A program made the translations under genes and the position numbers. The notes beneath the pieces were generated by a model. The model did not search any database, was not told the origin of the DNA, and was given only the letters and a program-made list of their open reading frames with translations. This document shows, one piece after another, positions 7,887 to 43,642 of a DNA stretch of 64,000 bases (positions within the stretch are counted from its first letter, which is position 1; each line of letters begins with the position of its first letter). Source of the DNA: an uncultured Campylobacterales bacterium (GTDB lineage: Bacteria > Campylobacterota > Campylobacteria > Campylobacterales > CAZCQG01); the NCBI GenBank assembly GCA_964500775.1, contig CAZCQG010000006.1, positions 5,584-69,583 of the forward strand, in the 5' to 3' direction.

Positions 7887-11058
<3,172 letters not shown>

Positions 11059-11069
<11 letters not shown>

Positions 11070-11580
11070 ATTCTGTTTCCTTCATTTCTTTGAAGGCTGA
11101 TTGCAAGTATTGTTCCAACTCGCCTATGCTCTCAAATACATCGGGGAGATATTTTTGTGCTCTATAATAAAATAGCGACGCACCGTCACTTAGAAGCGCT
11201 TCATTTGCGCTCAAACCGTCTCTTATTTTTAGCTCAAAACAAATATTTTCATAAACACCGAGGTATTTTAGATCTATACCTCTAGGTTCGCTAGAGAGTT
11301 TATCTCCGTAGAGAGAGTAGGCTTTGGTATGCTGAGGTAGATTGAAGTTTCCTATTTTTTCATTTTTTTTACTATCAAAGACATCGCACTTGAGGCAATA
11401 GTCATAACAGAGTACGTCTAGATTTTCTATGGAATATATGCTTGAGAGTTCTACGAAATTTTTTATGCTTGGTTTTTTCTTTTGTTCGAGTTTTTGGAAG
11501 GATATTATCGCTACGGTGTAAACTATTGAGAGGAGCAAAACTACAATCAATAGCTCAAAAAGGGTGAATGATTTTTTCAA
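11059..11580 (-). CDS. minor pseudopilin (prepilin-type N-terminal cleavage/methylation domain)
   Basis: 173 aa. N-terminus MKKS|FTLFELLIVVLLLSIV fits the class III signal (short basic leader, F+1, E+5, hydrophobic helix). Confidence 0.75.
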
Positions 11581-11603
11581 AAGTTCTCCGATTGGTTTAA
11601 CAT

Positions 11604-11632
11604 AAAACCGAGGGAGGAGAGACCTCGGTTTT
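11604..11632 (-). terminator. hairpin between the 1198-aa gene and the pseudopilin/gspF genes (candidate partial terminator)
   Basis: AAAACCGAGG (11604-11613) pairs perfectly with CCTCGGTTTT (11623-11632) around a 9-nt loop. On the minus strand the stem runs into TTTTATGTT. It sits 12 nt after the stop of the 1198-aa ORF. Confidence 0.55.
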
Positions 11633-11644
11633 ATAGTTTATTTA

Positions 11645-14600
11645 TTAGAAAGATTGACCGCCAAGACCGTAATCATTGATCTCAGTAAGCGTGCCGTGGC
11701 TACCAGCATTATAAGATGTACTGAATGTACCGTAGTACAATGTGCCGTCTACATATACATAGAACACTTCACCTTCATAGAAACTTCCGTGATATGTTAT
11801 TTGCATCTCGATTGTGCTACCGCCGCTTGTCGTTACATCATAGTAAGTCGCAGATGTCATTGACAATGTATCAGCGTTTGCTTCGCCTTTGAAAGCTATT
11901 TTCAATGGACTGCCTGCATAACCGTCATAATTTATAACGTTCAGCATCACTGCATTCTCAGTGTCTTCATAGTTAGTATTGGCAACTGTTGCCGTCAAAG
12001 TATCCGTCTTGCTATTTGCAACAGGCGCAAAGTTTACCGCTTGCATATCGGAATACATATAGTAATCGTTTTTAGCAAGTACTTTAAGACTATGGTACGG
12101 ATTTGTAGAGCTAATAGCACTGATTCCTAGCGTGCTGTTTGCATCCCAACCGAACAACTCGCCCAAGCTTGAGTAATCTGTAATACTTAGAGCAGTTTTT
12201 GTGCCGGCTCTAAATGCATAGTCGGAAATATTACCCTCAAACACTTGTATGGTATCGCTAGATGTGATATCCAAGCCTGTACCAGTAGCATTGTATGCTA
12301 CCGTCGGAGTAGCAGGTTTTGCCCAGTATGAGTAAAGCGAAGTTGCAAAGCTCGCCGTATTGCCAAAGCCGTCATACGCAGTGATTATTACAGGAACATC
12401 ACTTGTCGTAGGATCTGCGAATAGGATATATGCATCATTCAATCTTAATGTGAACGTACCGTCACTATTTCTTCTCAACGGAATAACATCACCGGAAACC
12501 GAAGCTACAACGTTATAAGAGTTATCGCTATAGTCTGTACCGGAATCACCCGCCAAGCCGTTAAGCTTAAACGTTACTGTTCTATTGATGTGGTTTCTAA
12601 CATCGCCCAAACCTGTTGTAGCACTTACACCGTTGTCAAAGTGTACCTGTACATAGCCGGCTGAATTTCCTGTCACGCCATTAGATAGCGTTATAGTTGC
12701 AGGTGTGAAATCATCACCCAATCTCACCCAGTAACCTAGTTTAGAATCTGTCCATAGCAACTCTTGCGTATCTTGCATATCTATATCAAACCAAGTCTCG
12801 GCATCTTTTGTAGCATCTAGCCCAAGCCATCTTACTGAACCATCAGTAGTTGATGTTTGTGCAGCAGTTAATACTGAAACTACATTCTTGCCTGTTTGCG
12901 TAACAAGTTTTTGTATCGGGTTGTTTGCCGGCATATCATCTGCCCAGTAAATGGCTTTCGTAAGGTCGGCTCTACTTCCTGATCCAAGTGTGATGTTACC
13001 GTCTATTACACCGCTAGAGTTTGGATTCGAAAGATCGTATCCGTGACTAATGAACGTACCGTTATAGTCAGATGCTACCGTATGACCATCAGCACCCGTT
13101 AGGTTTTTCAACGTGAACACGTTAGAGATAGGACCTTTTACCATGTCCGTACTTCCACTCAACGCGCCGATTCTTGTATCTAGGTATATACCTTTGTCGG
13201 TACCTGTTTCAAGAATTTGTATGTCATTGATAGGAGTAGAAGTATAACTATCTCTCCAAAGATCCGCACCAAGTACAGTATAGTTGGTATCGCTATTTAT
13301 TGTTACAATAGTTGCGTTCCAATCTTTTGTTGTATCGTTTCTTGCCCCTGCAATTTGAGCAATCGCATAAGAGTGGTTATAGTCGTCATACGACAATAAC
13401 GAGCTCTCCGCATCTGTTCCGCTAGCACGTACATAAAATTGTGTGCCGTTTTGATCGTTATCGTCTTTATAAACTCTAACAACCGTCGCATCCGCAACAC
13501 CAAATCTGTAGTTTGATGCTATGAGAACGCTATCGGTAGTACCGTCAAAGTTTGTATCCAACTCGTACGCTTTTAACTTTAGATCGCTCGCAGTAGAGTC
13601 ATCCGATCTTTTTTTCCAGTTACCAGTGATACTACCGGTCAAATTTGTAATTATATTAGCCGCCAATGTTGCCGGAGTAGCCCCTGCCGTTGACACGTAG
13701 AAGCTAGAATCGGTAACCGTAGTACCGCTACTTGTATACTCATGATACAAGTCGGCAAATTGGATTTCCAAATGCCCGATGCCGGTCATATTCCCTTCAT
13801 TCAACCAAGCACTATTGAGTTTTACCGCCATCAAATAGTCACCGTAAACGGCTGTTTGGTTGTTGTCATTAGCAGCCACCATCGGTAACGCAGTTCCGCT
13901 TGAAGGTCTTGTCGCCACTGAAGTGTTTAATTCAAACTTTCTGTCAGAAACAATCAGTACGTTTGTACCGTTCATAGGATACGCTCTAGTGTTCCCGAAG
14001 TACATCGTACCGTTTCTATCACCCGTTACGATTCTATCGTTTGTTGCAAGTGCTGCACCCAAAGCAGATGTAGCATTTGCTTCTGTCCAATAGGTACCTG
14101 CAATATTTCTTCCGAATGTATCTCTCAACGTATAACCCAAAGAAGTACTTATATCGACTATTGCTGCTGCTGCAGAATATCTAATGGTCTCATCGTTAAA
14201 AGAGAGTAAATGCCAACCGCTATTAAGGTTCATAGTCCCGTATGTACTCTCCCCTATATCAGAACTAGCTAACACCAATCCTGCTTTTGCGGTTGTGTTA
14301 TTTACCCATTGACCGTATGCCCAGTATCCGTGTGCACTCTCAACGTCATTTGTACTGCTTAAAGAGTTTTGACTGTCTGAAAGTCTGCTATCATATACAC
14401 CCCACGCGCCGTTAACATAACCAAATAGCGTCAGGTTGTCATCGGCAGACATAGCATCAAAATTATCCGTTGAAGTAAGCTGCATACTATTTGCAATAAC
14501 CTTTGTTAGGTTATTGTCAGATATGTTCGTATCCAAATACTCATCCAATCCGCTATATGCAGTTGAACTCGAAGAACTTGAAAGCAAAGCAGCCAACTCG

Positions 14601-15241
14601 GACGGAGTTACTCCTAAATCTGCAGTAGTAATAGCATACGGAGCATCGGAAGTATAATCTCTATGTAGTTTTACCCAGTAAAATTCTGTCGTATCGGCAT
14701 ATGTTTCGGTGTTAAATCTTACTTTAACCCATTGTCCTTCCATGTCAGACACGAAGAATACCCTTACCGCGTTTCCGCCCGGTGTGCTAATATACATTGT
14801 ATACACGGGATCGCCGCCGTCTTTCACGTATTCATTCGGTGAAGAAGCCACAGAACCCAAGTGTTGTAACTCAACTAACACATCATCGGTTGCCGCAATG
14901 GTATTGCCGCTTGGATCCTCGGACCCTACCAACAATTCGACACCTATTTCGGCAATCGCCGGAGTACTTACAACCCAACCGCTTCCGCTTGTGCCGCCGG
15001 TAGCGTTGTCATAATATGTTACGTTTCCGTCAGTATCGGCCTCATCCGTAGACGTAGTACCTAGAACATACGTGGTGTCCCAAGTAGGCACGCTGCTACT
15101 ACTCGTACCGTAGGTATATAACCCCTGTGTACCGAATAGCGTCCACTTTTCATGCGGTATCTCGATCTGAGTCCCCGCATTCACGAAAGCCGGAGCAACC
15201 GCTAACATTGCAGCCGCTATCGCACTAACCTTAATTTTCAT
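11645..15241 (-). CDS. large secreted Cys-free Thr/Ser/Asn/Asp-rich protein (S-layer-like; candidate T2SS substrate)
   Basis: 1198 aa with a signal peptide MKIKVSAIAAAMLAVAPAFVNA|GTQ. By my reading there are no cysteines in the whole protein. It is acidic, rich in T/S/N/G/Y, and ends ...GLGGQSF. A strong SD (AAGAGGAGAGAAAG-ATG) precedes the start. Confidence 0.8.
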   Translation of the reverse strand: MKIKVSAIAAAMLAVAPAFVNAGTQIEIPHEKWTLFGTQGLYTYGTSSSSVPTWDTTYVLGTTSTDEADTDGNVTYYDNATGGTSGSGWVVSTPAIAEIGVELLVGSEDPSGNTIAATDDVLVELQHLGSVASSPNEYVKDGGDPVYTMYISTPGGNAVRVFFVSDMEGQWVKVRFNTETYADTTEFYWVKLHRDYTSDAPYAITTADLGVTPSELAALLSSSSSSTAYSGLDEYLDTNISDNNLTKVIANSMQLTSTDNFDAMSADDNLTLFGYVNGAWGVYDSRLSDSQNSLSSTNDVESAHGYWAYGQWVNNTTAKAGLVLASSDIGESTYGTMNLNSGWHLLSFNDETIRYSAAAAIVDISTSLGYTLRDTFGRNIAGTYWTEANATSALGAALATNDRIVTGDRNGTMYFGNTRAYPMNGTNVLIVSDRKFELNTSVATRPSSGTALPMVAANDNNQTAVYGDYLMAVKLNSAWLNEGNMTGIGHLEIQFADLYHEYTSSGTTVTDSSFYVSTAGATPATLAANIITNLTGSITGNWKKRSDDSTASDLKLKAYELDTNFDGTTDSVLIASNYRFGVADATVVRVYKDDNDQNGTQFYVRASGTDAESSLLSYDDYNHSYAIAQIAGARNDTTKDWNATIVTINSDTNYTVLGADLWRDSYTSTPINDIQILETGTDKGIYLDTRIGALSGSTDMVKGPISNVFTLKNLTGADGHTVASDYNGTFISHGYDLSNPNSSGVIDGNITLGSGSRADLTKAIYWADDMPANNPIQKLVTQTGKNVVSVLTAAQTSTTDGSVRWLGLDATKDAETWFDIDMQDTQELLWTDSKLGYWVRLGDDFTPATITLSNGVTGNSAGYVQVHFDNGVSATTGLGDVRNHINRTVTFKLNGLAGDSGTDYSDNSYNVVASVSGDVIPLRRNSDGTFTLRLNDAYILFADPTTSDVPVIITAYDGFGNTASFATSLYSYWAKPATPTVAYNATGTGLDITSSDTIQVFEGNISDYAFRAGTKTALSITDYSSLGELFGWDANSTLGISAISSTNPYHSLKVLAKNDYYMYSDMQAVNFAPVANSKTDTLTATVANTNYEDTENAVMLNVINYDGYAGSPLKIAFKGEANADTLSMTSATYYDVTTSGGSTIEMQITYHGSFYEGEVFYVYVDGTLYYGTFSTSYNAGSHGTLTEINDYGLGGQSF

Positions 15242-15276
15242 CTTTCTCTCCTCTTGTTAAGATTCTCTAATTTCCC

Positions 15277-15291
15277 TTGGCTTGCGAAGCC
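15277..15291 (-). promoter_or_regulatory. small stable hairpin in the putative 5' leader of the 1198-aa gene
   Basis: TGGCTT-GCG-AAGCCA, a 6-bp stem with a 3-nt loop, lies about 35 nt upstream of the start codon. AT-rich -10-like hexamers occur further upstream (15320-15350). Confidence 0.35.
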
Positions 15292-15366
15292 ACTTAACTG
15301 AATAAAACCAAATGATATAATCCAAACTCAAGATTTATATCGACTGATAAAAAAAATACTTTAATT

Positions 15367-17004
15367 TTACGGATCCAATAAAGTATTTTTTACAGGGATT
15401 AACCTCTTTATGCTTGAAGCACATTCCGTTCCACCTTTATTTTCAAACTCGCCTCTATAGCAAGCGCCGTTTGGTATCTTTACATAAAAGACGCTACCGT
15501 TAAAATATTTCGTGGTGGCACTAATCCTTATATATATATCCTCATCGGGATGTACCTCTATATCATAATAAGGTCCGCACCAAGTTTTTGTCGTTGATGA
15601 GTCACTAATCAACGGATAATAAAAATCAATACCTAAATCTACTTTTTGATAGGCGACTTCTAGCGTCTTATCGGGTACCGCTACAGCCTGCCCGCTACTA
15701 CCGTAGCTGACAAACATTTTTAGCTGAGTAAGATTAGTCTCACACGCATTTGGATCGGCAACGCTCAAACTATAATCATATGGATCCGTTACATTTACCG
15801 TGTATTGTCTCGTGGTAGTATTATTAAACTCATTAGTTGCGCTGACATTCATTGTGGTAGAACCTTCTTTTAGGCCCTCCATACAGATGTATTTATCATC
15901 CGTAGAATCGACGTAACTATTTAATACCGTGCTATCAGCTTCCGTAACACTAAATGAGACATTATCGTCACCGACGGCACAAGATTGTGCGTCAAACAAC
16001 ACACAAGTTACCGTCTCATCGCTAACATTTATATCAAATGAACTTGCCGTAGTATTAATTATCGGGTAATCACCGGATTGGCATGTGGTATTTGTATCAT
16101 CACCGCTATTTATCACTATGACATCATACGTTTTTGATGCACTGTTGCCGTATTTGTTCGTTGCGTTTACCGTCATCGTGGTTATACCTTGCTCGATTCC
16201 CAACATGCAAATGGAGTTATTTATATCTGGATTATTATATGTATAGAGTATAGGTAAACCGACGCTACTGCTCAAGGTGACGTTATTATCTCCTCCCTCG
16301 CAGGATTCTACATCAAACGTATAGCAATTTTTATTTGCCTCTCCCGTGTATATCGCAAAATAATTTACCGTAGTATTTATCACCGGATTATCCGACGAGG
16401 TGCAAATATCCGTTGTATTATCATCTGTTGTATTATCGTCTGTTGTATTATCGTCCATATTGACCACCCACACGTCAATCGTTTTTACGGCAGTATTATC
16501 AAGAGAATTTGTTGCTTGAAGACTTAAAGTCGTATTCCCCTCGCTTAGTCCCTGGACGCATAAAGATGAGTCGCTCTGAATATAGGAGCCGATAACAGAT
16601 GCATTGCCGACCAAATAGTTTAGAGCCACATCGCCTTCCGCACAAGCGGTGATGTCAAAGCTAATGCAATTCAGCCCGCCTACTTGTAAGCCGAGGTAAT
16701 TTACGCTTGACATATTTATAATAGGATCCGTGGTGTTGCATTCGCTCGTACCGTCGTCATAGTACGTATAAGGATTTTTATCGCAGTAGCCTTTCAGACC
16801 AAATCCAAAATCACACATTTGGTTATGTTCTTTGTAATAATCAACGCTTTTTAAAATATTACTGGCAAGGTCTTCGCCGAGTTTGGCAAGACTGCCTCCG
16901 TCGCAACCTTTTATCAACAGGGTTAAAGTCGTTATGATGAGGAATCTGATTCCAGCACTACGCACTATTATCCTTTTTATTGATTTTATATACACGTTAA
17001 ACAA
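15367..17004 (-). CDS. secreted/lipoprotein-like protein with three ~100-aa four-cysteine repeats and a (DDNTT)x3 linker
   Basis: 545 aa. TTG start (an alternative GTG lies 3 codons in). N-terminal hydrophobic segment ends LLIKGC, a possible lipobox. Three repeats of the form C..(D)P(I/V)INT(T/S)....C..FD...C..GD.NV......C..G...G.TT..V.ATN. The C-terminal module resembles that of the 1198-aa protein. Confidence 0.75.
   Translation of the reverse strand: MFNVYIKSIKRIIVRSAGIRFLIITTLTLLIKGCDGGSLAKLGEDLASNILKSVDYYKEHNQMCDFGFGLKGYCDKNPYTYYDDGTSECNTTDPIINMSSVNYLGLQVGGLNCISFDITACAEGDVALNYLVGNASVIGSYIQSDSSLCVQGLSEGNTTLSLQATNSLDNTAVKTIDVWVVNMDDNTTDDNTTDDNTTDICTSSDNPVINTTVNYFAIYTGEANKNCYTFDVESCEGGDNNVTLSSSVGLPILYTYNNPDINNSICMLGIEQGITTMTVNATNKYGNSASKTYDVIVINSGDDTNTTCQSGDYPIINTTASSFDINVSDETVTCVLFDAQSCAVGDDNVSFSVTEADSTVLNSYVDSTDDKYICMEGLKEGSTTMNVSATNEFNNTTTRQYTVNVTDPYDYSLSVADPNACETNLTQLKMFVSYGSSGQAVAVPDKTLEVAYQKVDLGIDFYYPLISDSSTTKTWCGPYYDIEVHPDEDIYIRISATTKYFNGSVFYVKIPNGACYRGEFENKGGTECASSIKRLIPVKNTLLDP
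16411..16455 (-). repeat. 15-bp tandem repeat x3 encoding (DDNTT)3
   Basis: Plus-strand units are cgttgtattatcatc, tgttgtattatcgtc and tgttgtattatcgtc. Two units are identical and one differs at 2 positions. All are in frame within the 545-aa ORF. Confidence 0.9.
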
Positions 17005-17060
17005 TTATCATTCCAAAATTTTCAACGTCTCTTTCGATTTTTTTGGAATGATAATTGTTT
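16999..17060. promoter_or_regulatory. perfect 20-bp inverted repeat (22-nt spacer) in the divergent control region, overlapping the start codon of the 545-aa gene
   Basis: AAACAATTATCATTCCAAAA (16999-17018) is the exact reverse complement of TTTTGGAATGATAATTGTTT (17041-17060). The TTG start (rc of 17002-17004) lies inside the left arm. Confidence 0.5.
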
Positions 17061-17097
17061 GTACGGTGTTTAGTGATATCGACCAAGGAAGGAATTT

Positions 17098-17253
17098 ATG
17101 AAGCTAATTGTCAAATACTTGATAATTGTTATGATAGCGTTAGGGTTTAGTGGATGCATCAGTGCATCATTGGATATCGGCAACAGCGGGAATAAAAATC
17201 AGCAAATGATGGCGCCTAATCCATACTACTACCCACCGCCGTACTACTATTGA
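17098..17253 (+). CDS. small lipoprotein (51 aa) with Tyr/Pro-rich tail, absent from the ORF track
   Basis: ATG at 17098 is preceded by AAGGAAGGA. Translation: MKLIVKYLIIVMIALGFSGCISASLDIGNSGNKNQQMMAPNPYYYPPPYYY*. Lipobox LGFSG|C. Stop TGA at 17251-17253. Confidence 0.5.
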   Translation: MKLIVKYLIIVMIALGFSGCISASLDIGNSGNKNQQMMAPNPYYYPPPYYY

Positions 17254-17319
17254 TAGTAGTCAAAAAAAATAGAAAATAGACGATTTAGTTCTATACAAGT
17301 TAATTTTGGGAGCACGACA

Positions 17320-18876
17320 ATGGGAAGGTTGTTTTACAAAACTTCGATAGTATTTCTGTTCTTAATACTATTGGGTGGATGCGGTTCCGGAACAGCCACG
17401 GATAATACTATCGGTGTTTACAAAGGTCCGGTTTATGAAGGGATCGTGAAGGCTGACGACACCGAATGTACTTATGCGGATAGTCCCGGTATGTACAGTT
17501 GCTCAAATTCTCCGGATGACGGTATTTTTTTATATCCCAATTTGGATGGCATAATATCTTACTGCATCACCGACAACTGCGACGATGGAGCTATTCAGCT
17601 AGATTTTCCGTCAAACAAACTTAATACCCCTTTTATGAAAGCACCCAAAGGCTCAAATAAAATCGATATGATAACGACTGCGATATACGACTTGTGGGAG
17701 TACTACGGCAAGGAAGCCGACATAACAAGCATTGTAGAGTTGGTCGCAGAGATGACGGGAGCCGAGTTACCCTCAAACTATTTAACGAACAATCAAAATA
17801 TTACCAACGACAAAGATATAGCGGTACTCAACTATGCCGTCCAAGATGCGGTGGAGCAATTTATCTCTTTAAAAGAGAGCGGGAGCACCGATGAGAACGC
17901 AAAAACAACCTCAAAAGCTCTTTATGAAACAAGATTAGCACAAAACGGAATAAGTAGCTCTAGTACTTTTGAAGATATAGAATCCAAACTTCTTTCTAAA
18001 TTATCTACCGAAGAGAGTATCAGCTATGAAGAAGTAGATTACACTCCGCCTACGGAAGTAGAAACCGAAGAAGTGACTCTTGCGGTAAACGCAACGGCAG
18101 ATATTACCGTAAACAGTACATTGAGTAACGTAACGGCTACCAGTAGCGATACAAGTATAGCTACCGCCTCCGTAAATAGCAGTGTCGTTACAATTACGGC
18201 AGTCGCATCCGGCGATGCGGTAATTTATATCAAAAACGATGGCGCTACGATTATAGTGGTCAATGTTACCGTTACATCTTCAACCCAGGACGATGACGAC
18301 GACAATACTTCAACGACCGTTGAAGAGACTACGGCAAGCGTCACTCAAGGCTCCACGACCGATGTTTCACTCGATGGAATCACGGGAACGATCACCGTTA
18401 CTACGTCTTCAAGTGCTACGGTAACCGTATCCGTCAGCTCCAACACGCTCACCCTATCCGGCATTTCCGTCGGTAGTGCGACCGTGGAAGTAAGTAGTGA
18501 CGGCGTAGTAGTAAAAAGAATTGCCGTAACGGTACTTGCGCAAGGTATTACGGATGTTACAAACAGCTATTCCATAGATTATACGAGTGATGCGCCGCCG
18601 TCAACATACGAGCAAAATAATTATAAGATTTATCAAAACGGCTCGGCACTAGTAATAGACTTTAGCGACTATGCATTCGGCTTCCCGTCCGTAAAAGTTT
18701 CACAACTTTACGACGTTAAGTACGGCAACGCTTTAAATAACATAAACAACACCGCTACGATAAGCGGACTGACGGCTACGATTTCAACGGGTGCACTGTT
18801 GGATGAATTCTACTTATCATTTGCATGTTATGCCGATAGTATAAGGTCGTCAAAAGCGATTATTAAAAAGAAGTAG
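17320..18876 (+). CDS. lipoprotein with two tandem bacterial Ig-like (Big_2-type) domains
   Basis: 518 aa. Lipobox LLGG|CGSG. Two ~70-aa beta-rich repeats (TLAVNATADITV...SSDTSIATASVNSSVVTITAVASGDAVIYI and SVTQGSTTDVSL...TVSVSSNTLTLSGISVGSATVEV) are separated by QDDDDDNTSTT. GGGAG SD lies 7 nt upstream. Confidence 0.75.
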   Translation: MGRLFYKTSIVFLFLILLGGCGSGTATDNTIGVYKGPVYEGIVKADDTECTYADSPGMYSCSNSPDDGIFLYPNLDGIISYCITDNCDDGAIQLDFPSNKLNTPFMKAPKGSNKIDMITTAIYDLWEYYGKEADITSIVELVAEMTGAELPSNYLTNNQNITNDKDIAVLNYAVQDAVEQFISLKESGSTDENAKTTSKALYETRLAQNGISSSSTFEDIESKLLSKLSTEESISYEEVDYTPPTEVETEEVTLAVNATADITVNSTLSNVTATSSDTSIATASVNSSVVTITAVASGDAVIYIKNDGATIIVVNVTVTSSTQDDDDDNTSTTVEETTASVTQGSTTDVSLDGITGTITVTTSSSATVTVSVSSNTLTLSGISVGSATVEVSSDGVVVKRIAVTVLAQGITDVTNSYSIDYTSDAPPSTYEQNNYKIYQNGSALVIDFSDYAFGFPSVKVSQLYDVKYGNALNNINNTATISGLTATISTGALLDEFYLSFACYADSIRSSKAIIKKK

Positions 18877-18886
18877 TTTTCTAAAT

Positions 18887-19582
18887 ATGGCAAATATTAT
18901 TATTCTATTAATATCTTTGATACTCGGGGGAATAACGCTCTACTTCAGCATAGACGATTCTCCCGTCGCGTTTGAACCTATAAAAAAAGAGGTGCAAAAA
19001 AGCGGCGGTACTAAAAATGTAAGCACTCCTAAAAATATTGACATCGAGTACAAATTACAGGGTAGCAATCTCGAAGAGGAGTTAGCCTCTTTACCTGAAG
19101 ACATTGCAAACCAAAATAGAAAAGTGAGACTGTTTATCGAGCAAAATCAAATGTTCTCATCCTATGATCAAAATTATGACGAAGCTCGGTTTAATGATAA
19201 AAACGGCTCTTATGTGGTTAAAGTGATGGTAAAGAATCCGAACGTAAAAACAACCTCTTTTAAAAAAGAGATTATGACAAACATTACTACTCCTGACGGA
19301 ACGTCTATAAATGCAAAAATTGACCCCGAACTAATAGACACTAATGAAAATGTCTACTTGCTTGTAACCAATACGACCACAAAAAAAGAGCAGTTGGTAA
19401 ACATTACTAAGCAGTTAAACGAACAGGTTAAAAATACCAACGGTAATGTCTTAAGTATCACATACAGCGATAACGACAGCGGCATCTCCGTCCCAAGTGA
19501 TACACAAACAAAGTCTTTTACGATAAAACAGCCTCCTTCGATACCCGATGAGGTGCTAAAAAAATTAGGGATAACCGAATAA
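18887..19582 (+). CDS. hypothetical membrane-anchored protein
   Basis: 231 aa. N-terminal TM helix (IIILLISLILGGITLYF), then a polar Asn/Lys/Thr-rich domain with no recognised motif. Confidence 0.45.
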   Translation: MANIIILLISLILGGITLYFSIDDSPVAFEPIKKEVQKSGGTKNVSTPKNIDIEYKLQGSNLEEELASLPEDIANQNRKVRLFIEQNQMFSSYDQNYDEARFNDKNGSYVVKVMVKNPNVKTTSFKKEIMTNITTPDGTSINAKIDPELIDTNENVYLLVTNTTTKKEQLVNITKQLNEQVKNTNGNVLSITYSDNDSGISVPSDTQTKSFTIKQPPSIPDEVLKKLGITE

Positions 19583-19617
19583 AAAAAGGTATAGCGCTCC
19601 TTATCACGATATTTTTT

Positions 19618-20463
19618 GTGATTACCCTTACGCTACTTATTGCCTACAATCAGCAGCTAGTAGGTTTTATGATAAAAGACACACAAGCGCTCCGTTCCGA
19701 TATTCAGTTCTCCTATCTTCAGGATGAGGTTAGAAAATTCATAGTCGAGAATCTCAAAGAGAGTAAAACCCCCAAAGAGCTCCACACGATATTGGGTTAT
19801 TTTCCGCTATTTTTATCTGCCGAAAAAGAAGACATCGGCGTTCAAATAGATTGCAAATGCGCATCAAATAAAATAAACATAAATGCCATCGCCGAAACAA
19901 ACGGGACTATTCATAAAAATTATTTTGATTTATTTGTCGCTATTTTCGACAAAAACAATATAAGCGACCCCGAATTTTTAGCAAATATGGTTGTAGATGC
20001 TATAGATTCCGATTATGTCGAAAATGATTACGAGAGCGAAATATCATTAAAGAATCCATTGTTTCGACAGGGGAAAATAGTGGACGAAGGGGCTTTTTCG
20101 GAGATTCTATACGCTTATGCAAAAACCAAAAACGATGAAGATGCCCTCAAAGTCGATTGGAATACCTATTTTTCCTACGGTATTTCCGATACGCTCGATT
20201 TTAATTGTATGGATCAAAAACTTATCGATACGATTTTTTCCGATACGATGATCACGAAAGAGAGCGATGTCATCTACGAAAACGCGGATGAATTGTCTCT
20301 GCGGAGTGATGAGGATAAAGAGATTTTGAGCAGATTTAATATACACTTCTATGATTCCAAATTACTATGCAATGTTGCGGTCTCTAAAGACAAAACTATA
20401 AGTACCTATAGTTATCTCATCGATCTTAGCAAGAATAAGGCGGCCTTTTTTGAAAAAAATTAA
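19618..20463 (+). CDS. GspK-like minor pseudopilin (true start probably upstream, see findings)
   Basis: The track start is a GTG in the middle of a hydrophobic helix. The open frame upstream reads ...IRDNRIKKGIALLITIFFVITLTLLIAY, which resembles GspK N-termini (basic leader plus G.ALL helix). An internal KININAI resembles the GspK (K/R)xNxN motif. Confidence 0.5.
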   Translation: MITLTLLIAYNQQLVGFMIKDTQALRSDIQFSYLQDEVRKFIVENLKESKTPKELHTILGYFPLFLSAEKEDIGVQIDCKCASNKININAIAETNGTIHKNYFDLFVAIFDKNNISDPEFLANMVVDAIDSDYVENDYESEISLKNPLFRQGKIVDEGAFSEILYAYAKTKNDEDALKVDWNTYFSYGISDTLDFNCMDQKLIDTIFSDTMITKESDVIYENADELSLRSDEDKEILSRFNIHFYDSKLLCNVAVSKDKTISTYSYLIDLSKNKAAFFEKN

Positions 20464-21819: not shown

Positions 21820-22355
21820 TGGCAAAAAAATTACTCAAGGGTTTTCTCTTTTTTCTCGCGTTATTACTTCTCATAATCATCTTTTTACCGAAAAAAAATC
21901 TCTACTATATGCTCGAATCACAATTACTACAAGAGAATAAAATTATCCTTTCGGATGAAACACTCAAAGATCAATACCTCTATCTCGATGTTTCAAATGC
22001 GACTTTGTATTATGAAGGGATAGAAGCGGGTCTAGTGGGCAATATCAAATTTGTCCCCTTAATTTTTGCAAATATCATCAATGTCGATAACGCAAGTTTT
22101 AGTAGCGAAATCAGCAATATCATCCCTAAAAAAGTTCAGAACCTAAGAATCTACCACACCATAATAGACCCGCTAAACATCAACATAACCGCAAAGGGGG
22201 ATTTCGGTGAGATTTTCGGTTTTATTAGTTTGGCTACGCAAGAGCTATTTTTAGAGCTTATTCCCAGTGAGAGTATGTACACGAAATATCGGGGAATCTT
22301 ATTGAAATTTAAAAAGGTGGATAACAAGTATGTCCTCAGTACAAAACTTCAATAA
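21819..22355 (+). CDS. GspN-slot membrane-anchored protein (function unassigned)
   Basis: 178 aa with an N-terminal TM helix (GFLFFLALLLLIIIFL). TAATG junction with the upstream gene. No recognisable motif. Confidence 0.3.
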   Translation: MAKKLLKGFLFFLALLLLIIIFLPKKNLYYMLESQLLQENKIILSDETLKDQYLYLDVSNATLYYEGIEAGLVGNIKFVPLIFANIINVDNASFSSEISNIIPKKVQNLRIYHTIIDPLNINITAKGDFGEIFGFISLATQELFLELIPSESMYTKYRGILLKFKKVDNKYVLSTKLQ

Positions 22356-23142
22356 AACCGCTTCGGTTATCCTCATACTCGCTCTTATCGCAAAGACTAT
22401 CGCTATAGGTTTATTTTATTATCTCCCCAAAGACGGGATAGATTTTAATTTGCAAGAAAAAATAACCCTCCCCTACCACGGATATAGATTCTCAAAAGCA
22501 CTCGGTCTAAACGAAGAAGCGGTGCAACAAGTCAATATTCAAAAGCCAAAAGAGATATATTCTATCGACGATATGGTGCTCAAAGCGGTATACGTAGAAG
22601 AGCAAGGGGGATTTATCTTCGTATCGCACAAATCTGAGCTCGACAAAACGGTGCTCCTGAATATCGGCGATGAATTTAAAGGGTATCTTTTGGAAAAAGT
22701 CCAACCCAAAGAGGCGATCTTCTCTATGGGCGGCAGAGAGTATAAGCTTAGCCTCATACAAGAGAGCGAAGAGGCGCAAATAGAAGAATCTATCTCTATG
22801 GAAGAAAACGTAGCAGGTGATGACGCGGTGCGGGTTCTCCCTAAAAAAGGGGTGGAGTATTACACCAATAATCTCAAAGACATATGGAAAAACATCGCGA
22901 TTAAAGAGTACCGCGAAGGGAACAAGATCGCAGGATTTGTCATCACTTCGATAAAAAAAGGATCTCTTTTTGACAAGTTAGGTCTTGAAGAAGGGGATGT
23001 CATCGTCGCCGTAAACAATAAGGAGATCAAGAGTTTCGCGCAAGCATTCGGCGCATACCGAGACTTAAAAAGTGCTCCTGCCATCAAACTCACTATACTA
23101 AGGAACGGCATCAAAAAAGAGCTTGAATACGAAGTGATGTAG
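22330..23142 (+). CDS. gspC: type II secretion system protein C (TM anchor + HR-like region + C-terminal PDZ)
   Basis: 270 aa. N-terminal TM helix, a central region (VLKAVYVEEQGGFIFV...GYLLEKVQPKEAIFSMGGREYKL), and a PDZ domain (GFVITSIKKGSLFDKLGLEEGDVIVAVNNKEI). Sits immediately upstream of the secretin. Confidence 0.7.
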   Translation: MSSVQNFNKTASVILILALIAKTIAIGLFYYLPKDGIDFNLQEKITLPYHGYRFSKALGLNEEAVQQVNIQKPKEIYSIDDMVLKAVYVEEQGGFIFVSHKSELDKTVLLNIGDEFKGYLLEKVQPKEAIFSMGGREYKLSLIQESEEAQIEESISMEENVAGDDAVRVLPKKGVEYYTNNLKDIWKNIAIKEYREGNKIAGFVITSIKKGSLFDKLGLEEGDVIVAVNNKEIKSFAQAFGAYRDLKSAPAIKLTILRNGIKKELEYEVM

Positions 23143-23176
23143 AATTCCTTTAACTGGAATGTATTTTGCTTAATAT

Positions 23177-23201
23177 GCCTTGAAAACCCATATTTCAAGG
23201 C
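23177..23201 (+). promoter_or_regulatory. perfect 9-bp hairpin between gspC and gspD that includes the gspD Shine-Dalgarno
   Basis: GCCTTGAAA (23177-23185) pairs with TTTCAAGGC (23193-23201) around a 7-nt loop. The AAGG at 23197-23200 lies 6 nt before the gspD ATG (23207) and is in the 3' arm. Confidence 0.4.
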
Positions 23202-23206
23202 TTTGA

Positions 23207-25063
23207 ATGAAGTATTTTAGACTGTTTCAAGCGATAATTTTAGCGCTACTTATTGCCCTTTCGCCCTTGAGCGGCGCGTATGATTATAAAAATTCAGGCT
23301 CTACGCCCGTCAAGATCGACTTCAAAGATCTAGAGATAAACGACTTCATAAAGCTGGTTTCAAAAATCCTCAATAAAAACGTATTGCTAAGCTATGATAT
23401 TCCCGGTAAAGTGGAGTTTATCTCCAATGCACCTATTTACAAAGAAAACATATTAGAAATTCTCCTCTCCACGCTTGATTCCAAAGGATACACGCTAGTA
23501 GATAGCGGCACCTATTTCGAGGTGGTCAAAAGTAATGAAGCGACAAACTACAACCTTCCTATCGTGCGGAGCGCAAAACACGATTATAAACAAATGGTGA
23601 GCGAGACGATTACCGTGCGAGGCGACACGGCAGAATCGGTCGCCGCCAAGATAAAACATCTCAACTCAAAATACGGAAAAATCATCACCGTAAAAGAGAG
23701 CAATAAACTCCTAGTTACCGATTTCCCGAAAAATATCGAATCGATAAAAGAGACGATCAGGGTCATAGAAAATCAGTACAAAAAAAGTATGAAGGTCGTC
23801 GAACTCTACAATACAAAAGTCGAAAACGTCATCGAAAATATTATGAAGATCTCTAGGGGTCTCCTTGATAGTAGAATCGAAAGCGAAGCTTATGAACTGA
23901 TTCCGAATAAAGAAAACAACTCTATCGTCATGATCGGTACGGAAAAAAGTCTTGAAGTGCTTGATGAAATCATCGCACAGGTGGATGTCAAAAAAGAAGA
24001 GACCGAGATAGTAAGCGACAATACTATCAAGATCGTAAATCTTCATAACTCGGATGCCGAAGAGGTTGCTAAAGTCGTCCAATCCGTCATTAGCGGAAGA
24101 CAATACAAAGATCCTACGGAAAAACCAAACATAAGCGCAGATAAAGAGCTCAACGCAATCGTCGTGATAGGAAGCAAAAGTAGCGTTTATGAGATAGAGC
24201 GCTTAATAGGTGAACTCGACGTAGAAAAACAACAAGTCTACATCAAAGCCCAAATAATCGAAATAAGCCAAAAAAGGACGAAAGACCTAGGTATCAAATA
24301 CGGTTTGGAGGCCGGAACCGCTACTTCCAACGGTCTTTTTACTCTCGGTACGAATCTAGGAGGTTCGGCAATCGCATCTACCTTGGCAAATAGCTTTCTT
24401 AATTTTGATACGAGTGCATTGAAATCAGCCTTTGCCCTTGGGGCATCTCTCAACTTTCTCAAAGTAAATAACGCGGCCGACATCGTGAGCGAACCGACGA
24501 TTTTGTGTTTAGACAATAAAGAATCTTCCATCTTTGTGGGTGAAGTAACTTCTATCACCACGAGTACTACCTCGGGGACAAGTGCGACCGATTTAGCGAG
24601 AAATAGCTTCTCAAGGGAATCGGTAGGCTTATCACTCAAGGTAAAACCGAGAATCTCGCAGGATGGCAAGGTGATGATAGAAGCCCACACGAAACTTGAA
24701 GACTTTTCAGGAAGTGTCAGTGCGAGCGGTCAGCCCGATACGACAAATCGCGAGGTACAAACCGTAGCGATAGTAAAAAACGGTGAAAGCGTCATCATCG
24801 GCGGACTTATCAAAAATAAAGAGACCGACGCGTCCCAAAATGTCCCTTTGCTCTCGGATGTTCCGGTGTTGGGGAATCTGTTTAAATACAATAATGACTA
24901 TAAAGACAAAACAAACTTGGTGATAATACTCACCCCCTATATCGTCGAAAAAAGCTCGAATCTCACCACTCTAATGGAGAAGCTCACAGAGTTAAACAAA
25001 TTGCAAAAACAGTATAATGACCGCGTTTTAAGTGAACTAAACGAAAAGAGAAAAAAATTGTAA
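23207..25063 (+). CDS. gspD: type II secretion system secretin GspD
   Basis: 618 aa with a signal peptide. N0-like domain (KIDFKDLEINDFIKLVSKILNKNVLL...GKVEFIS...L.STLDSKGYTLV), repeated N-domains, and a secretin core ending VPLLSDVPVLGNLFKYNNDYKDKTNLVIILTPYIV. Confidence 0.9.
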   Translation: MKYFRLFQAIILALLIALSPLSGAYDYKNSGSTPVKIDFKDLEINDFIKLVSKILNKNVLLSYDIPGKVEFISNAPIYKENILEILLSTLDSKGYTLVDSGTYFEVVKSNEATNYNLPIVRSAKHDYKQMVSETITVRGDTAESVAAKIKHLNSKYGKIITVKESNKLLVTDFPKNIESIKETIRVIENQYKKSMKVVELYNTKVENVIENIMKISRGLLDSRIESEAYELIPNKENNSIVMIGTEKSLEVLDEIIAQVDVKKEETEIVSDNTIKIVNLHNSDAEEVAKVVQSVISGRQYKDPTEKPNISADKELNAIVVIGSKSSVYEIERLIGELDVEKQQVYIKAQIIEISQKRTKDLGIKYGLEAGTATSNGLFTLGTNLGGSAIASTLANSFLNFDTSALKSAFALGASLNFLKVNNAADIVSEPTILCLDNKESSIFVGEVTSITTSTTSGTSATDLARNSFSRESVGLSLKVKPRISQDGKVMIEAHTKLEDFSGSVSASGQPDTTNREVQTVAIVKNGESVIIGGLIKNKETDASQNVPLLSDVPVLGNLFKYNNDYKDKTNLVIILTPYIVEKSSNLTTLMEKLTELNKLQKQYNDRVLSELNEKRKKL

Positions 25064-25064
25064 T

Positions 25065-26582
25065 ATGTTAAAAATCGAGAGTATCCACGACGTAAGTTTA
25101 GAACCCGTAGAGATAGAGGGGATCGACTTAAATATCGCCCTCAAAAACTATGTTCTTTTTACAAAGTTCGAGGGGAAAACCATCGTTGCCCTCTCCGAAG
25201 AATACCTCACGCAAAGCTTGGATTATATTTCCAAACAAAATTTCAACTACAAAATAAAATTTCTTGATGAAGAATCTTTTGAGCGTCTCTACAATAAATT
25301 TCTAGAGATTCGCACCGATAGAGAGATAGAAAACTTTGAGAGCACCCCTGAAGAGAGCGTAGACGAAGACCTCTCGCTTACCGAATTTTTGCGCAATAGT
25401 GCAGATATTTTAACAAGCGAAGAATCAGCACCCATCATAAAATTCGTAAACTCGTTATTCTATCAAGCGATCAAAAAAAGGGCGAGCGACATCCACGTAG
25501 AGATGCACGAACACAAAGGGGAGGTGCGATTCCGAGTGGACGGCGTACTTATCAAACACGTCGATCTCGACCTCAAAATCACCGCCCTCATTATCTCTAG
25601 GATAAAGGTCATCTCCAACCTCGACATCAGCGAAAAGAGAGTCCCCCAAGACGGCAGGACGCAGGTAAAGATCGCAGGGAAAAAACTTGACATCAGGGTC
25701 TCTGACCTCCCGACGTATTACGGAGAGCGGATTGTTATGAGGATTTTGATGCAGAGTGAGGACATCCCGCATCTCGAAGAACTAGGCTTTAAAAGCGCGA
25801 TGACTAAAGAGTTTGAAAACTTGCTCAAATATAGCCACGGCATCATCCTAGTCACCGGTCCTACGGGGAGCGGGAAATCAACCACGCTCCACTCGTTTCT
25901 CCAAAAGCTCTCCACGCCCGACAAAAACATCATTACCGTCGAAGATCCCGTGGAGTACAAAGCCGATAATATCAATCAGATTCAAGTCAACGCCAAAGTA
26001 GGGTTAACCTTTGCCGCGGGTTTGCGCTCTATTCTTCGTCAAGACCCGGACGTCATTATGGTGGGGGAGATCAGGGATGCCGAAACGGCAAAAATAGCTA
26101 CGCAAGCTGCGCTGACCGGACACTTGGTCCTCTCTACGCTCCACACCAATAATGCCACATCGACTATCGCAAGACTCGTGGATATGGGAGTAGAGCCGTA
26201 TTTGCTCTCTTCCGTTCTAATAGGGGCTTTGGCACAGCGACTGGTGCGTAAACTTTGTCCCCACTGCAAAGAAGAGGACAAGGTCGCCGAAAATTATGCA
26301 CAAGAGTTTAACCTCCCTCAAGGTGCAAAAATCTACAATGCAAAAGGGTGTAGACAATGCAACTATACCGGATACAACGGCAGAGTCGCTGTAGGGGAGT
26401 TGTTTTTGATGAATGATGCGATAAAAAAAGCAATCAAAGATACCACCAACGACCAAATCATCAGGGAATACGCCAAGAAAAAAGGGCTCAAGACCCTCTC
26501 CGATCAGCTCAAAGAGGAGTTGCTAGCAGGCAACACTTCATTAGAAGAGGCGATCAGAGTCGGTTTAAAAGATGATGCGTAA
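25065..26582 (+). CDS. gspE: type II secretion system ATPase GspE
   Basis: 505 aa. Walker A GPTGSGKST, Asp box, Walker B (DPDVIMVGEIRD), His box (TGHLVLSTLHTN) and a tetracysteine motif CPHC...CRQC. Confidence 0.9.
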   Translation: MLKIESIHDVSLEPVEIEGIDLNIALKNYVLFTKFEGKTIVALSEEYLTQSLDYISKQNFNYKIKFLDEESFERLYNKFLEIRTDREIENFESTPEESVDEDLSLTEFLRNSADILTSEESAPIIKFVNSLFYQAIKKRASDIHVEMHEHKGEVRFRVDGVLIKHVDLDLKITALIISRIKVISNLDISEKRVPQDGRTQVKIAGKKLDIRVSDLPTYYGERIVMRILMQSEDIPHLEELGFKSAMTKEFENLLKYSHGIILVTGPTGSGKSTTLHSFLQKLSTPDKNIITVEDPVEYKADNINQIQVNAKVGLTFAAGLRSILRQDPDVIMVGEIRDAETAKIATQAALTGHLVLSTLHTNNATSTIARLVDMGVEPYLLSSVLIGALAQRLVRKLCPHCKEEDKVAENYAQEFNLPQGAKIYNAKGCRQCNYTGYNGRVAVGELFLMNDAIKKAIKDTTNDQIIREYAKKKGLKTLSDQLKEELLAGNTSLEEAIRVGLKDDA

Positions 26583-38289: not shown

Positions 38290-38299
38290 GAGAGATGCG

Positions 38300-38713: not shown

Positions 38714-38715
38714 AA

Positions 38716-38739
38716 CCACGTATTGTGGCTTATTTTTTG
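38716..38739 (+). terminator. weak hairpin plus T-tract after echF
   Basis: CCACG-TAT-TGTGG (one G:U pair) followed by CTTATTTTTTG. The stem is short, so support is weak. Confidence 0.3.
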
Positions 38740-43632: not shown

Positions 43633-43642
43633 CAGGATTATT

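What the first reader, a model, noticed from the sequence alone, without database searches (positions are those of the whole stretch)
11645..15579. Shared ~45-aa C-terminal module between the two adjacent cargo candidates
The C-termini of the 1198-aa protein (coded at 11645-11854) and the 545-aa protein (15367-15579) align almost without gaps. The first reads ATYYDVTTSGGSTIEMQITYHGSFYEGEVFYVYVDGTLYYGTF. The second reads GPYYDIEVHPDEDIYIRISATTKYFNGSVFYVKIPNGACYRGEF. Shared positions give the pattern YYD-8x-I-3x-I-8x-G-x-VFYV, then G..Y.G.F after a 1-residue indel. The rest of the two proteins is unrelated. A common terminal beta-rich module in two otherwise unrelated neighbours suggests a shared anchoring, sorting or secretion-recognition domain. 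T2SS substrate recognition signals are poorly understood, which makes this worth testing.
Basis: seen in the sequence. Interest (0 to 1): 0.65.

Follow-up and report, generated by a model that had tools for sequence, protein, structure and literature searches.

The report
Faint shared tail in two exported proteins
Two neighbouring orphan exported proteins beside a type II secretion gene cluster share a faint but probably real 42-residue beta-strand segment near their C-termini, but nothing here shows what it does, and no other protein carrying it could be found.

Summary
The 1198-aa protein A (11645-15241, -) and the 545-aa protein B (15367-17004, -) share one 41/42-residue stretch: 14 identities, 1 gap, BLASTP 28.9 bits. 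It ends exactly 25 residues from the C-terminus in both proteins. Nothing else in them is similar.

The score is borderline window-wide (BLASTP E about 0.03 for one query). It does stand out from query-specific real-sequence controls: SW 67 against a maximum of 47 in 692 windows. The tails are reciprocal phmmer best hits (E about 1e-4). Adjacency and the identical C-terminal register add support. I put real homology at about 0.65-0.7.

The type II secretion (T2SS) context is real: GspF, pseudopilins, GspC with a PDZ domain, GspD and GspE. A and B are orphans, with only self hits among billions of proteins and no counterpart in three Sulfurimonas loci. No third carrier turned up in the window, in 1.84e9 representative proteins or in metagenomes. 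That search had little power for so weak a motif.

No Pfam, NCBIfam or PDB match was found. AlphaFold models were unusable (pLDDT about 40). Known C-terminal sorting signals are absent.

A sorting or secretion role has a precedent in the VesB Ig-fold, which depends on the GspC PDZ domain. That role is untested here, and the third neighbouring lipoprotein lacks the module. Interest is modest.

The parts
11645..15241 (-). Protein A, 1198 aa. Orphan, acidic (pI 4.2), Thr/Ser/Ala/Gly/Asp-rich, no Cys. Sec-type signal peptide MKIKVSAIAAAMLAVAPAFVNA|GTQ. Strong Shine-Dalgarno AGGAG.
   Evidence: No Pfam, NCBIfam or PDB match. Only self hits in 5.8e9 protein clusters.
11723..11845 (-). Module core in A (residues 1133-1173): YYDVTTSGGSTIEMQITYHGSFYEGEVFYVYVDGTLYYGTF.
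11648..11722 (-). 25-residue non-conserved C-terminal extension of A (STSYNAGSHGTLTEINDYGLGGQSF). Same length as in B. No TM helix and no OMP beta-signal pattern.
   Evidence: read directly from the sequence.
15367..17004 (-). Protein B. 545 aa from TTG 17004; more likely 532 aa from GTG 16965, which has the Shine-Dalgarno AAGGA. Signal peptide MRSAGIRFLIITTLTLLIKG|CDGGS is lipoprotein-like, but the lipobox is atypical (K at -2). 18 Cys in the mature part.
   Evidence: Only a self hit in the database.
15445..15570 (-). Module core in B (residues 479-520): YYDIEVHPDEDIYIRISATTKYFNGSVFYVKIPNGACYRGEF.
15790..16740 (-). Three Cys-rich tandem repeats of about 98 aa in B (residues 89-180, 201-297, 308-405), with a (DNTTD)3 linker. 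Not related to the shared tail.
   Evidence: Weak sub-threshold hit to PF13629.
11599..11638 (-). Strong hairpin followed by a U-tract, directly after the stop codon of A. Terminator-like element between A and the pseudopilin gene.
   Evidence: dG -17.3 kcal/mol, z -6.7.
9852..11580 (-). GspH-like pseudopilin (11059-11580) and GspF (9852-11069), downstream of A on the same strand.
17320..18876 (+). Protein C, 518 aa. Canonical lipoprotein (LLGG|CGSGT). First gene of the divergent T2SS arm. Lacks the module.
22330..26582 (+). GspC-like protein with a PDZ domain (22330-23142), GspD secretin (23207-25063) and GspE ATPase (25065-26582).

Best explanation
The two tails are very divergent copies of one small C-terminal beta-domain. 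The domain is the last ~67 residues: four conserved strands (YYDxxx / xIxxxIxx / GxVFYVxx / xxYxGxF) plus a 25-residue extension that has kept its length but not its sequence.

The domain sits on two otherwise unrelated, lineage-specific exported proteins. These are transcribed in the same direction at the head of one arm of a rearranged type II secretion (T2SS) locus.

Shown here:
- The similarity and its identical register from the C-terminus.
- Export signals on both proteins.
- The T2SS neighbourhood.
- The orphan status of both proteins.

Inferred:
- Both proteins cross the inner membrane by Sec. A uses a signal peptidase I type signal and B a lipoprotein-like signal.
- They fold in the periplasm and are likely cargo of the adjacent T2SS. 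Known precedents are T2SS cargo genes that lie beside the machinery genes: pulA, and sslE within the yghJ-gsp locus.
- The shared end-domain works as a folded protein-binding module that gives both products one common partner. I think the most likely partner is a cell-surface component or the other protein. That would keep soluble A at the surface next to lipid-anchored B. Recognition by the T2SS itself is less likely.
For: Sequence similarity:
- BLASTP 28.9 bits, 14/42 identities.
- Reciprocal best phmmer hits between the tails, E 1e-4 to 2e-4 in the window proteome.
- hhalign E 1.7e-4 against 1% probability for the reversed control.
- SW 67 against a maximum of 47 in 692 real windows, and at most 31 and 39 against the rest of A and of B, which share the same composition.
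- 0 of 5000 shuffles reach the observed score.
- The match ends exactly 25 residues from the C-terminus in both proteins, with a single 1-residue indel.
- Synonymous sites are saturated while 14 residues are kept.
- The equivalent segments are predicted as strands in both models, at low confidence.

Context:
- T2SS genes on both sides.
- A and B are absent from the collinear T2SS operons of three Sulfurimonas genomes. They are therefore lineage-specific additions at the rearrangement point.
- B and C have Gly/Ser/Asp-rich residues after the lipobox Cys. T2SS-dependent surface lipoproteins of A. baumannii show the same feature (PMC12802150).
Against: - Only two sequences exist, and neither has an orthologue, so conservation cannot be tested.
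- The score is borderline after an all-against-all correction. BLASTP E is 0.03 per query, unrelated pairs reach 27.7 bits, and one spurious tail pair reaches SW 61.
- The flanks show no similarity.
- AlphaFold models are unusable (pLDDT 41 and 38) and the fold search is meaningless.
- No third carrier was found. Neighbouring candidate cargo C and D lack the module.
- The binding-partner role is pure inference.
- A terminator-like hairpin separates A from the downstream T2SS genes, which weakens the co-transcription argument.
Confidence: 0.6

Rival explanations
1. Chance or convergent resemblance. Both proteins are rich in Thr, Ser, Asn, Asp, Tyr and beta-branched residues. Two amphipathic beta-hairpin segments of such proteins could look alike without common descent.
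For: - BLASTP E is only 0.03 within the window, and other unrelated pairs reach 26-27.7 bits.
- A clearly spurious tail pair reaches SW 61 against 67.
- The bit score (about 14 by phmmer) is far below what any database search could recover.
- The tail profile also picks up unrelated repeat proteins through the same strand pattern.
- No carrier or orthologue exists elsewhere.
Against: - Query-specific real-sequence backgrounds top out at 47 (other proteins), 31 (rest of A) and 39 (rest of B), against 67.
- The match is a reciprocal best hit.
- It lies on the exact C-terminal diagonal, one of about 1700 possible diagonals.
- The genes are adjacent.
- The reversed-sequence control gives 1% against 49%.
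Confidence: 0.27
2. The module is a secretion-recognition element. It would be a folded beta-domain that docks on the PDZ-bearing GspC, or another T2SS component. It would mark A and B as cargo, as shown for the Ig-fold of VesB in V. cholerae and the Fn3 domain of PelI in Dickeya.
For: - The locus encodes a GspC-like protein with a PDZ domain, plus GspD, GspE and GspF.
- Both carriers have export signals and lie inside the locus.
- The module is at the same C-terminal position in both.
- Precedent: the VesB Ig-fold confers PDZ-dependent secretion on beta-lactamase (PMC12369372).
Against: - There is no functional evidence.
- Candidate cargo C and D of the same locus lack the module.
- Only two carriers are known.
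- The fold is unknown.
- In known cases the T2SS signal is not a conserved sequence motif shared between substrates.
Confidence: 0.1
3. The module is just the terminal strand pair of a generic Ig-like beta-sandwich. It could be a degenerate fourth copy of B's own repeats, or a relative of the 73-aa repeats of Bacteroidota T9SS cargo proteins. It would have no special role.
For: - The tail profile aligns with the '...LTPGQDIYIRVKASASSF.S..Y.L.VP' end of 73-aa repeats in P0005 and P0006.
- hhalign local probability is 64% and E 6.6e-5, against 0.9% for the reversed control.
Against: - That target was picked post hoc from 1.84e9 proteins. Each single repeat scores at most 8.5 bits, and the summed score is a repeat artefact.
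- B's own repeats do not match the tail (hmmsearch finds no 4th domain; hhalign 1.8%).
- No Pfam Ig-like family matches even at E 10.
Confidence: 0.1

Closest known systems
C-terminal Ig-fold domain of the V. cholerae T2SS substrates VesA/VesB/VesC (and the Fn3 domain of Dickeya PelI), recognised through the GspC PDZ domain (PMC12369372)
   Same: - A beta-rich domain near the C-terminus of T2SS-associated exported proteins.
- A GspC with a PDZ domain is encoded in the same locus.
- The domain is shared by more than one candidate substrate.
   Different: - There is no sequence match to any Ig or Fn3 family.
- The fold is not established (pLDDT about 40).
- The carriers here are otherwise unrelated, whereas VesA/B/C are paralogues.
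- No secretion data exist.
- No GlyGly-CTERM follows the domain.
Type IX secretion C-terminal domain (Por_Secre_tail, PF18962)
   Same: It is a small beta-sandwich at the extreme C-terminus that is shared by otherwise unrelated cargo proteins and acts as a sorting tag.
   Different: - No PF18962 match even at E 10.
- Only two carriers are known, rather than dozens per genome.
- The neighbourhood encodes a T2SS, not a T9SS. Restriction of T9SS to Bacteroidota and allies is established knowledge and was not tested here.
GlyGly-CTERM/rhombosortase and other exosortase-type C-terminal sorting signals (PEP-CTERM, MYXO-CTERM and others)
   Same: They are C-terminal signals found on T2SS substrates, for example VesB, and govern surface retention.
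   Different: - Those signals are a short motif plus a TM helix plus a basic cluster at the very end.
- A ends ...DYGLGGQSF and B ends ...IPVKNTLLDP, with no hydrophobic helix.
- No NCBIfam sorting-domain model hits either protein.
T2SS-dependent surface lipoproteins encoded beside their T2SS (PulA of Klebsiella, SslE/YghJ of E. coli, InvL of A. baumannii; PMC12802150)
   Same: - Candidate cargo genes are placed at the head of, or divergent from, the T2SS operon.
- B and C have lipoprotein-type signals with Gly/Ser/Asp-rich residues right after the Cys (CDGGS, CGSGT). This resembles the GGG or ND(N/D) motif described at P2'-P4'.
   Different: - There is no homology to PulA, SslE or InvL.
- B's lipobox is atypical (K at -2).
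- No GspN homologue was recognised.
- The published motif concerns the N-terminus, not a C-terminal module.
73-aa tandem repeats of uncharacterised Bacteroidota T9SS cargo proteins (P0005, P0006)
   Same: The strand-turn-strand pattern 'DIYIRVKA....F.S...Y.L.VP' resembles 'DIYIRISATTKYFNGSVFYVKIP' in B.
   Different: - Each single repeat scores at most 8.5 bits.
- The match was found post hoc.
- It covers only 30 columns.
- Those units are internal tandem repeats, not a C-terminal single copy.

Membership tests
T9SS C-terminal sorting domain (Por_Secre_tail) | Match to PF18962 or the TIGR04183-type profile at the extreme C-terminus | tested here: not met
   Pfam scans of the full proteins and of the tails at E<=10 give no hit. 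The NCBIfam scan gives none.
T9SS C-terminal sorting domain (Por_Secre_tail) | T9SS machinery (PorK/L/M/N, SprA, PorU/V) in the genome | not testable with these tools
   Only a 64-kb window is available. It encodes a T2SS and an MSHA-type pilus, and no T9SS genes.
GlyGly-CTERM / exosortase-type C-terminal signals | Signature motif followed by a hydrophobic TM helix and a basic cluster at the C-terminal end | tested here: not met
   The C-termini read ...TLTEINDYGLGGQSF (A) and ...SSIKRLIPVKNTLLDP (B), with no TM helix. No NCBIfam sorting-signal model hits.
PDZ-dependent T2SS substrate domain (VesB Ig-fold / PelI Fn3 type) | Ig-like or Fn3 beta-sandwich fold of the module | tested here: inconclusive
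   AlphaFold2 on both tails gives pLDDT 40.9 and 38.1. Four strands are predicted at equivalent positions but there is no reliable fold. The Foldseek best hit has E 0.78.
PDZ-dependent T2SS substrate domain (VesB Ig-fold / PelI Fn3 type) | GspC with a PDZ domain in the cognate T2SS | tested here: met
   The protein at 22330-23142 has PDZ_6, PDZ_2 and PDZ hits (E 6e-9 to 2e-7) and is homologous to the GspC-position gene of the Sulfurimonas T2SS operons.
PDZ-dependent T2SS substrate domain (VesB Ig-fold / PelI Fn3 type) | Secretion depends on the domain and on the PDZ domain, and the domain is transferable to a reporter | not testable with these tools
   This needs experiments.
T2SS-dependent surface lipoprotein (PulA / InvL type) | Lipobox signal peptide with an acylatable Cys | tested here: inconclusive
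   B has ...TLLIKG|C with K at -2, which is atypical. C has canonical LLGG|C. A has a signal peptidase I type signal and is not a lipoprotein.
T2SS-dependent surface lipoprotein (PulA / InvL type) | Gly/Ser-rich or Asn/Asp-rich motif at P2'-P4' after the Cys (PMC12802150) | tested here: met
   B reads C-DGGS and C reads C-GSGTATDN. The feature is common in lipoproteins, so this is weak evidence.
T2SS-dependent surface lipoprotein (PulA / InvL type) | GspN (AsmA-like) component in the T2SS | tested here: inconclusive
   No Pfam or NCBIfam hit for the unassigned T2SS-locus genes at 19618-21418 and 21819-22355; 21394-21816 was checked against Pfam only, also without a hit. Distant AsmA-like folds would be missed.
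Outer-membrane beta-barrel C-terminal beta-signal | Terminal aromatic residue with hydrophobic residues at positions -3, -5, -7 and -9 | tested here: not met
   A ends ...N-D-Y-G-L-G-G-Q-S-F. Only the terminal F fits, and positions -3, -5, -7 and -9 are Q, G, G and D. B ends in P.
B's own Cys-rich Ig-like repeat (tail as a 4th copy) | Profile of the three repeats matches the tail | tested here: not met
   hmmsearch finds exactly three domains and none in the tail or in A. hhalign probability is 1.8%.

The most novel reading that the evidence does not exclude
The ~67-residue tail is a portable C-terminal docking domain for a subset of T2SS cargo in this Campylobacterota lineage. The PDZ-bearing GspC would read it. 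This would be the first case in which otherwise unrelated T2SS substrates share a recognisable sequence module that serves as their secretion or surface-sorting tag.
Probability: 0.08. Interest if true: 0.75.

Novelty: new member of a known kind. Interest (0 to 1): 0.3.

Why it matters
[quoted passage not shown] Published cases point to folded beta-domains (VesB Ig-fold, PelI Fn3, PulA N-domain) rather than to shared sequence motifs. A sequence-recognisable module common to unrelated cargo of one T2SS would make that recognition directly testable with truncations, reporter fusions and PDZ binding assays.

As it stands the case is thin. There are two carriers in one poorly sampled genome, no orthologues, no structure, and a similarity of about 14 bits. 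At minimum it is a probable new small beta-domain in two orphan exported proteins. It also marks a lineage-specific cargo island inserted at a rearranged T2SS locus.

Tried and rejected
1. Homologue searches with full-length A and B against 5.8e9 protein clusters returned only self hits.
2. A search with the 58-column core alignment found no candidate at all, not even self, so it is uninformative.
3. An exhaustive HMMER search with a 129-position tail profile against 1.84e9 representatives returned only A and B as real hits.
   - The four other hits (P0004-P0007) are tandem-repeat proteins.
   - Their scores are sums of many stretches of at most 8.5 bits, so I rejected them as carriers.
4. Two metagenome scans, one with the tail alignment and one with full A, found no relative.
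5. Three Sulfurimonas T2SS loci were fetched through GspF.
   - The T2SS genes are conserved there, but A, B, C and D are absent.
   - The genes upstream are gltBD or nuoLMN, so no comparative test of 'neighbouring cargo share a tail' was possible.
6. A tail HMM run against all ORFs of the window and of those loci found no third carrier and no internal copy in A or B.
7. The tails of C and D compared with those of A and B stayed at shuffle level.
8. Tail as a 4th copy of B's repeats: rejected.
9. Pfam at E<=10, NCBIfam and PDB sequence searches gave nothing meaningful.
10. AlphaFold2 on both tails gave pLDDT 41 and 38. Foldseek on one of the models had a best E of 0.78 and is meaningless.
11. 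Extension of the similarity upstream or downstream of the core: none.
12. Recent duplication or gene conversion: rejected, because DNA identity is 40% and only 6 of 14 codons are shared.
13. Natural variation from a second assembly (Logan SRR13617028): B's tail is identical and A differs by one residue outside the module, so it gives no information.
14. Literature searches on T2SS in Sulfurimonas and Campylobacterota found nothing specific.

Full report
**What is in the sequence**

The window carries the two ORFs as described. Protein A is 1198 aa (11645-15241, minus strand). Protein B is 545 aa (15367-17004, minus strand).

B more likely starts at GTG 16965, which has an AAGGA Shine-Dalgarno. 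That start gives the 532-aa product found in the public collection. A has a strong AGGAG ribosome-binding site.

The quoted tail peptides are exact.

BLASTP of A against B gives a single meaningful HSP. It pairs A 1133-1173 with B 479-520, with 14/42 identities, 22/42 positives, one 1-residue gap and 28.9 bits. Pairwise E is 0.001.

**Is it more than chance?**

On raw score alone the match is borderline.
- Against the 49 proteins of the window, BLASTP E is 0.03. Unrelated pairs reach 26-27.7 bits.
- Among all 1176 pairs of 90-residue C-terminal tails, the A-B pair (Smith-Waterman 67) ranks fourth. The three pairs above it are true paralogues: GspE/MshE, GspD/MshL and GspF/MshG.
- A clearly spurious K/T/N-rich pair reaches 61.

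Query-specific controls are much more favourable.
- 0 of 5000 composition-preserving shuffles reach the observed score; the mean is 26.6 and the sd 4.9.
- 692 real 90-residue windows from other proteins give at most 47 for B's tail and 42 for A's tail, with Gumbel P about 1e-6.
- The rest of A and the rest of B have the same biased composition. They give at most 31 and 39.
- phmmer with either tail against the window proteome returns the other protein as the best non-self hit (E 1e-4 to 2e-4).
- hhalign gives E 1.7e-4 and probability 49%. The reversed control gives 1%.

Two independent facts add weight.
- The genes are adjacent.
- The match ends exactly 25 residues from the C-terminus in both proteins. 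That is one diagonal out of roughly 1700.

The similarity is confined to the core. The 80-90 residues upstream and the 25 residues downstream are at shuffle level.

At the DNA level identity is 40%, and only 6 of the 14 conserved residues share a codon. This is an old divergence, not a recent duplication or conversion.

My reading is that homology is probable (about 0.65-0.7) but not proven.

**Context**

The type II secretion (T2SS) neighbourhood is real.
- Downstream of A on the same strand lie a GspH-like pseudopilin (11059-11580) and GspF (9852-11069; PF00482 E 7e-46).
- On the other strand lie K/L/M-position genes, a GspC-like protein with a PDZ domain (22330-23142), GspD (TIGR02517, 368 bits, above its cut-off), GspE and two pseudopilins.

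Three Sulfurimonas genomes, with GspF 54-55% identical, carry the same genes as one collinear operon. The order is gspG, gspH-like, gspF..., gspC, gspD, gspE. The operon is flanked there by gltBD or nuoLMN.

In the window the gspH-like/gspF pair is inverted and gspG sits 47 kb away (63244-63696). Four orphan genes fill the breakpoint as the first genes of the two divergent arms:
- B then A on the minus strand.
- C (518 aa) and D (231 aa) on the plus strand.

None of the four has a counterpart in the Sulfurimonas loci. A and B have only self hits among 5.8e9 protein clusters.

Properties of the candidate cargo proteins:
- A has a Sec-type signal (…AFVNA|GTQ). It is acidic (pI 4.2), free of Cys and rich in Thr, Ser, Ala, Gly and Asp.
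- B has a lipoprotein-like signal with an atypical lipobox (LIKG|C).
- B also has three Cys-rich repeats of about 98 aa.
- C has a canonical lipobox (LLGG|C).
- B and C continue after the Cys with CDGGS and CGSGT. This resembles the Gly/Ser- or Asn/Asp-rich motif reported for T2SS-dependent surface lipoproteins of A. baumannii (PMC12802150). Such linkers are common, so this is weak evidence.

A strong hairpin with a U-tract follows the stop codon of A (11599-11638; dG -17.3 kcal/mol, z -6.7). B-A is therefore probably its own highly expressed unit, with at most read-through into the pseudopilin and gspF genes.

Being T2SS cargo is a reasonable inference from position. Known precedents are pulA and sslE/yghJ, which lie next to their gsp genes (established knowledge). 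It is not shown here.

**Search for other carriers and for a family**

A two-sequence HMM of the tails finds no third carrier and no internal copy in the window or in the three related loci. The tails of C and D are at shuffle level against those of A and B.

An exhaustive HMMER search of 1.84e9 representative proteins returned A and B plus four tandem-repeat proteins. The significance of those four is an artefact of summing 5-13 stretches of at most 8.5 bits each.

Two of the four (P0005, P0006) are Bacteroidota-type T9SS cargo. Their 73-aa repeats end in '…PGQDIYIRVKASASSF.S..Y.L.VP', which recalls 'DEDIYIRISATTKYFNGSVFYVKIP' in B. hhalign gives 64% and E 6.6e-5 locally, against 0.9% for the reversed control. 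Because the target was picked post hoc from billions of proteins, this is a lead only.

Other searches gave nothing.
- Two metagenome scans found no relative.
- The word-indexed search with the core alignment returned no candidates.
- Pfam (even at E<=10), NCBIfam and PDB sequence searches gave no meaningful hit.
- B's tail is not a fourth copy of its own repeats.

An important caveat applies to all of these. The A-B similarity is worth only about 14 bits. A third carrier equally diverged would be invisible in any large database. 'No other carrier' is therefore weak negative evidence.

**Structure**

AlphaFold2 with the two-row alignments gave pLDDT 40.9 for B's tail and 38.1 for A's tail. Both models are unusable.

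The only consistent feature is four strands at the equivalent conserved segments: YYDxxx, xIxxxIxx, VFYVxx and xxYxGxF. The second strand shows an amphipathic alternation in the same register in both proteins.

Foldseek on one of the models had a best E of 0.78, which is meaningless, as expected.

**What it most likely is and does**

The best-supported reading is a small, lineage-specific C-terminal beta-domain. It is about 67 residues long. The last 25 residues keep their length but not their sequence. It is shared by two otherwise unrelated exported proteins that were added to a rearranged T2SS locus.

Known C-terminal sorting signals are excluded by direct tests.
- T9SS CTD: no profile match.
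- GlyGly-CTERM and exosortase-type signals: no TM helix at the end and no NCBIfam hit.
- OMP beta-signal: only the terminal Phe of A fits.

Function is inference. I favour a folded binding module that gives A and B a common partner, for instance surface retention of soluble A next to lipid-anchored B.

The Ig-fold of VesB carries a GspC-PDZ-dependent signal that is transferable to beta-lactamase, and the Fn3 domain of PelI binds the OutC PDZ domain (PMC12369372). This locus does encode a PDZ-bearing GspC. However, C and D lack the module, only two carriers exist, and nothing functional can be tested here. I give that reading about 0.1.

The chance or convergence rival keeps about 0.27.

**Novelty and score**

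The module matches no described family. The kind of thing it is, an accessory beta-domain shared by modular secreted or surface proteins, is well known. With two members in one genome and no structure or function, it is a modest lead (interest 0.3). It would become interesting only if more carriers appear in the complete genome or a role in T2SS recognition is shown.

Noticed in passing
window 9852-27497 and 63244-63696; L001-L003: The T2SS locus is rearranged relative to three Sulfurimonas genomes, where it is one collinear operon. In the window the gspH-like/gspF pair is inverted and gspG (PF08334, E 4e-33) lies 47 kb away next to a Pom-family outer-membrane protein. Four orphan genes (A, B, C, D) occupy the breakpoint as the first genes of two divergent arms.
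   Followed up: partly
window 11599-11638 (-): A strong hairpin with a U-tract lies immediately after the stop codon of A (dG -17.3 kcal/mol, z -6.7). It is terminator-like and sits between A and the pseudopilin gene, and the consensus terminator scan missed it. Together with the strong AGGAG ribosome-binding site, it suggests that A is an abundantly expressed product.
   Followed up: partly
window 15790-16740 (-), including 16409-16455: B contains three Cys-rich tandem repeats of about 98 aa, with 4 Cys each and a weak sub-threshold hit to PF13629. A (DNTTD)3 linker between them is encoded by a 15-nt triple tandem repeat. The repeats are unrelated to the shared tail.
   Followed up: partly
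window 17320-18876 (+) and 15367-16965 (-): Lipoprotein C (LLGG|CGSGT) and lipoprotein-like B (LIKG|CDGGS) both have Gly/Ser/Asp-rich residues right after the Cys. This resembles the sorting motif reported for T2SS-dependent surface lipoproteins in A. baumannii (PMC12802150).
   Followed up: partly
window 37195-46641 (+): The window holds a second pilus or secretion gene set of the MSHA type: a secretin (41315-42805), an ATPase with an MshEN domain (43592-45394), a PilC/GspF-like platform protein (45391-46641) and a TPR/SH3 protein (42802-43632).
   Followed up: no
P0005, P0006 (proteins): These are uncharacterised Bacteroidota-type T9SS cargo proteins built from more than 10 tandem 73-aa repeats (…TIDY..E.T…GTG…LTPGQDLYFRVKATASSFASE..LL.VP.RP). 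The repeats have no Pfam family, and their last two strands resemble the module in B.
   Followed up: partly
window 23207-25063 vs 38797-40284: The C-terminal tails of GspD and of an MshI-position protein give a Smith-Waterman score of 61 from a K/T/N-rich stretch that looks spurious. It is a useful reminder that tail-to-tail scores of about 60 occur between unrelated real proteins.
   Followed up: yes
window 59731-62250 (-): An 839-aa CHASE4-PAS-GGDEF-EAL signalling protein lies downstream of the relocated gspG and the Pom-like outer-membrane protein gene.
   Followed up: no
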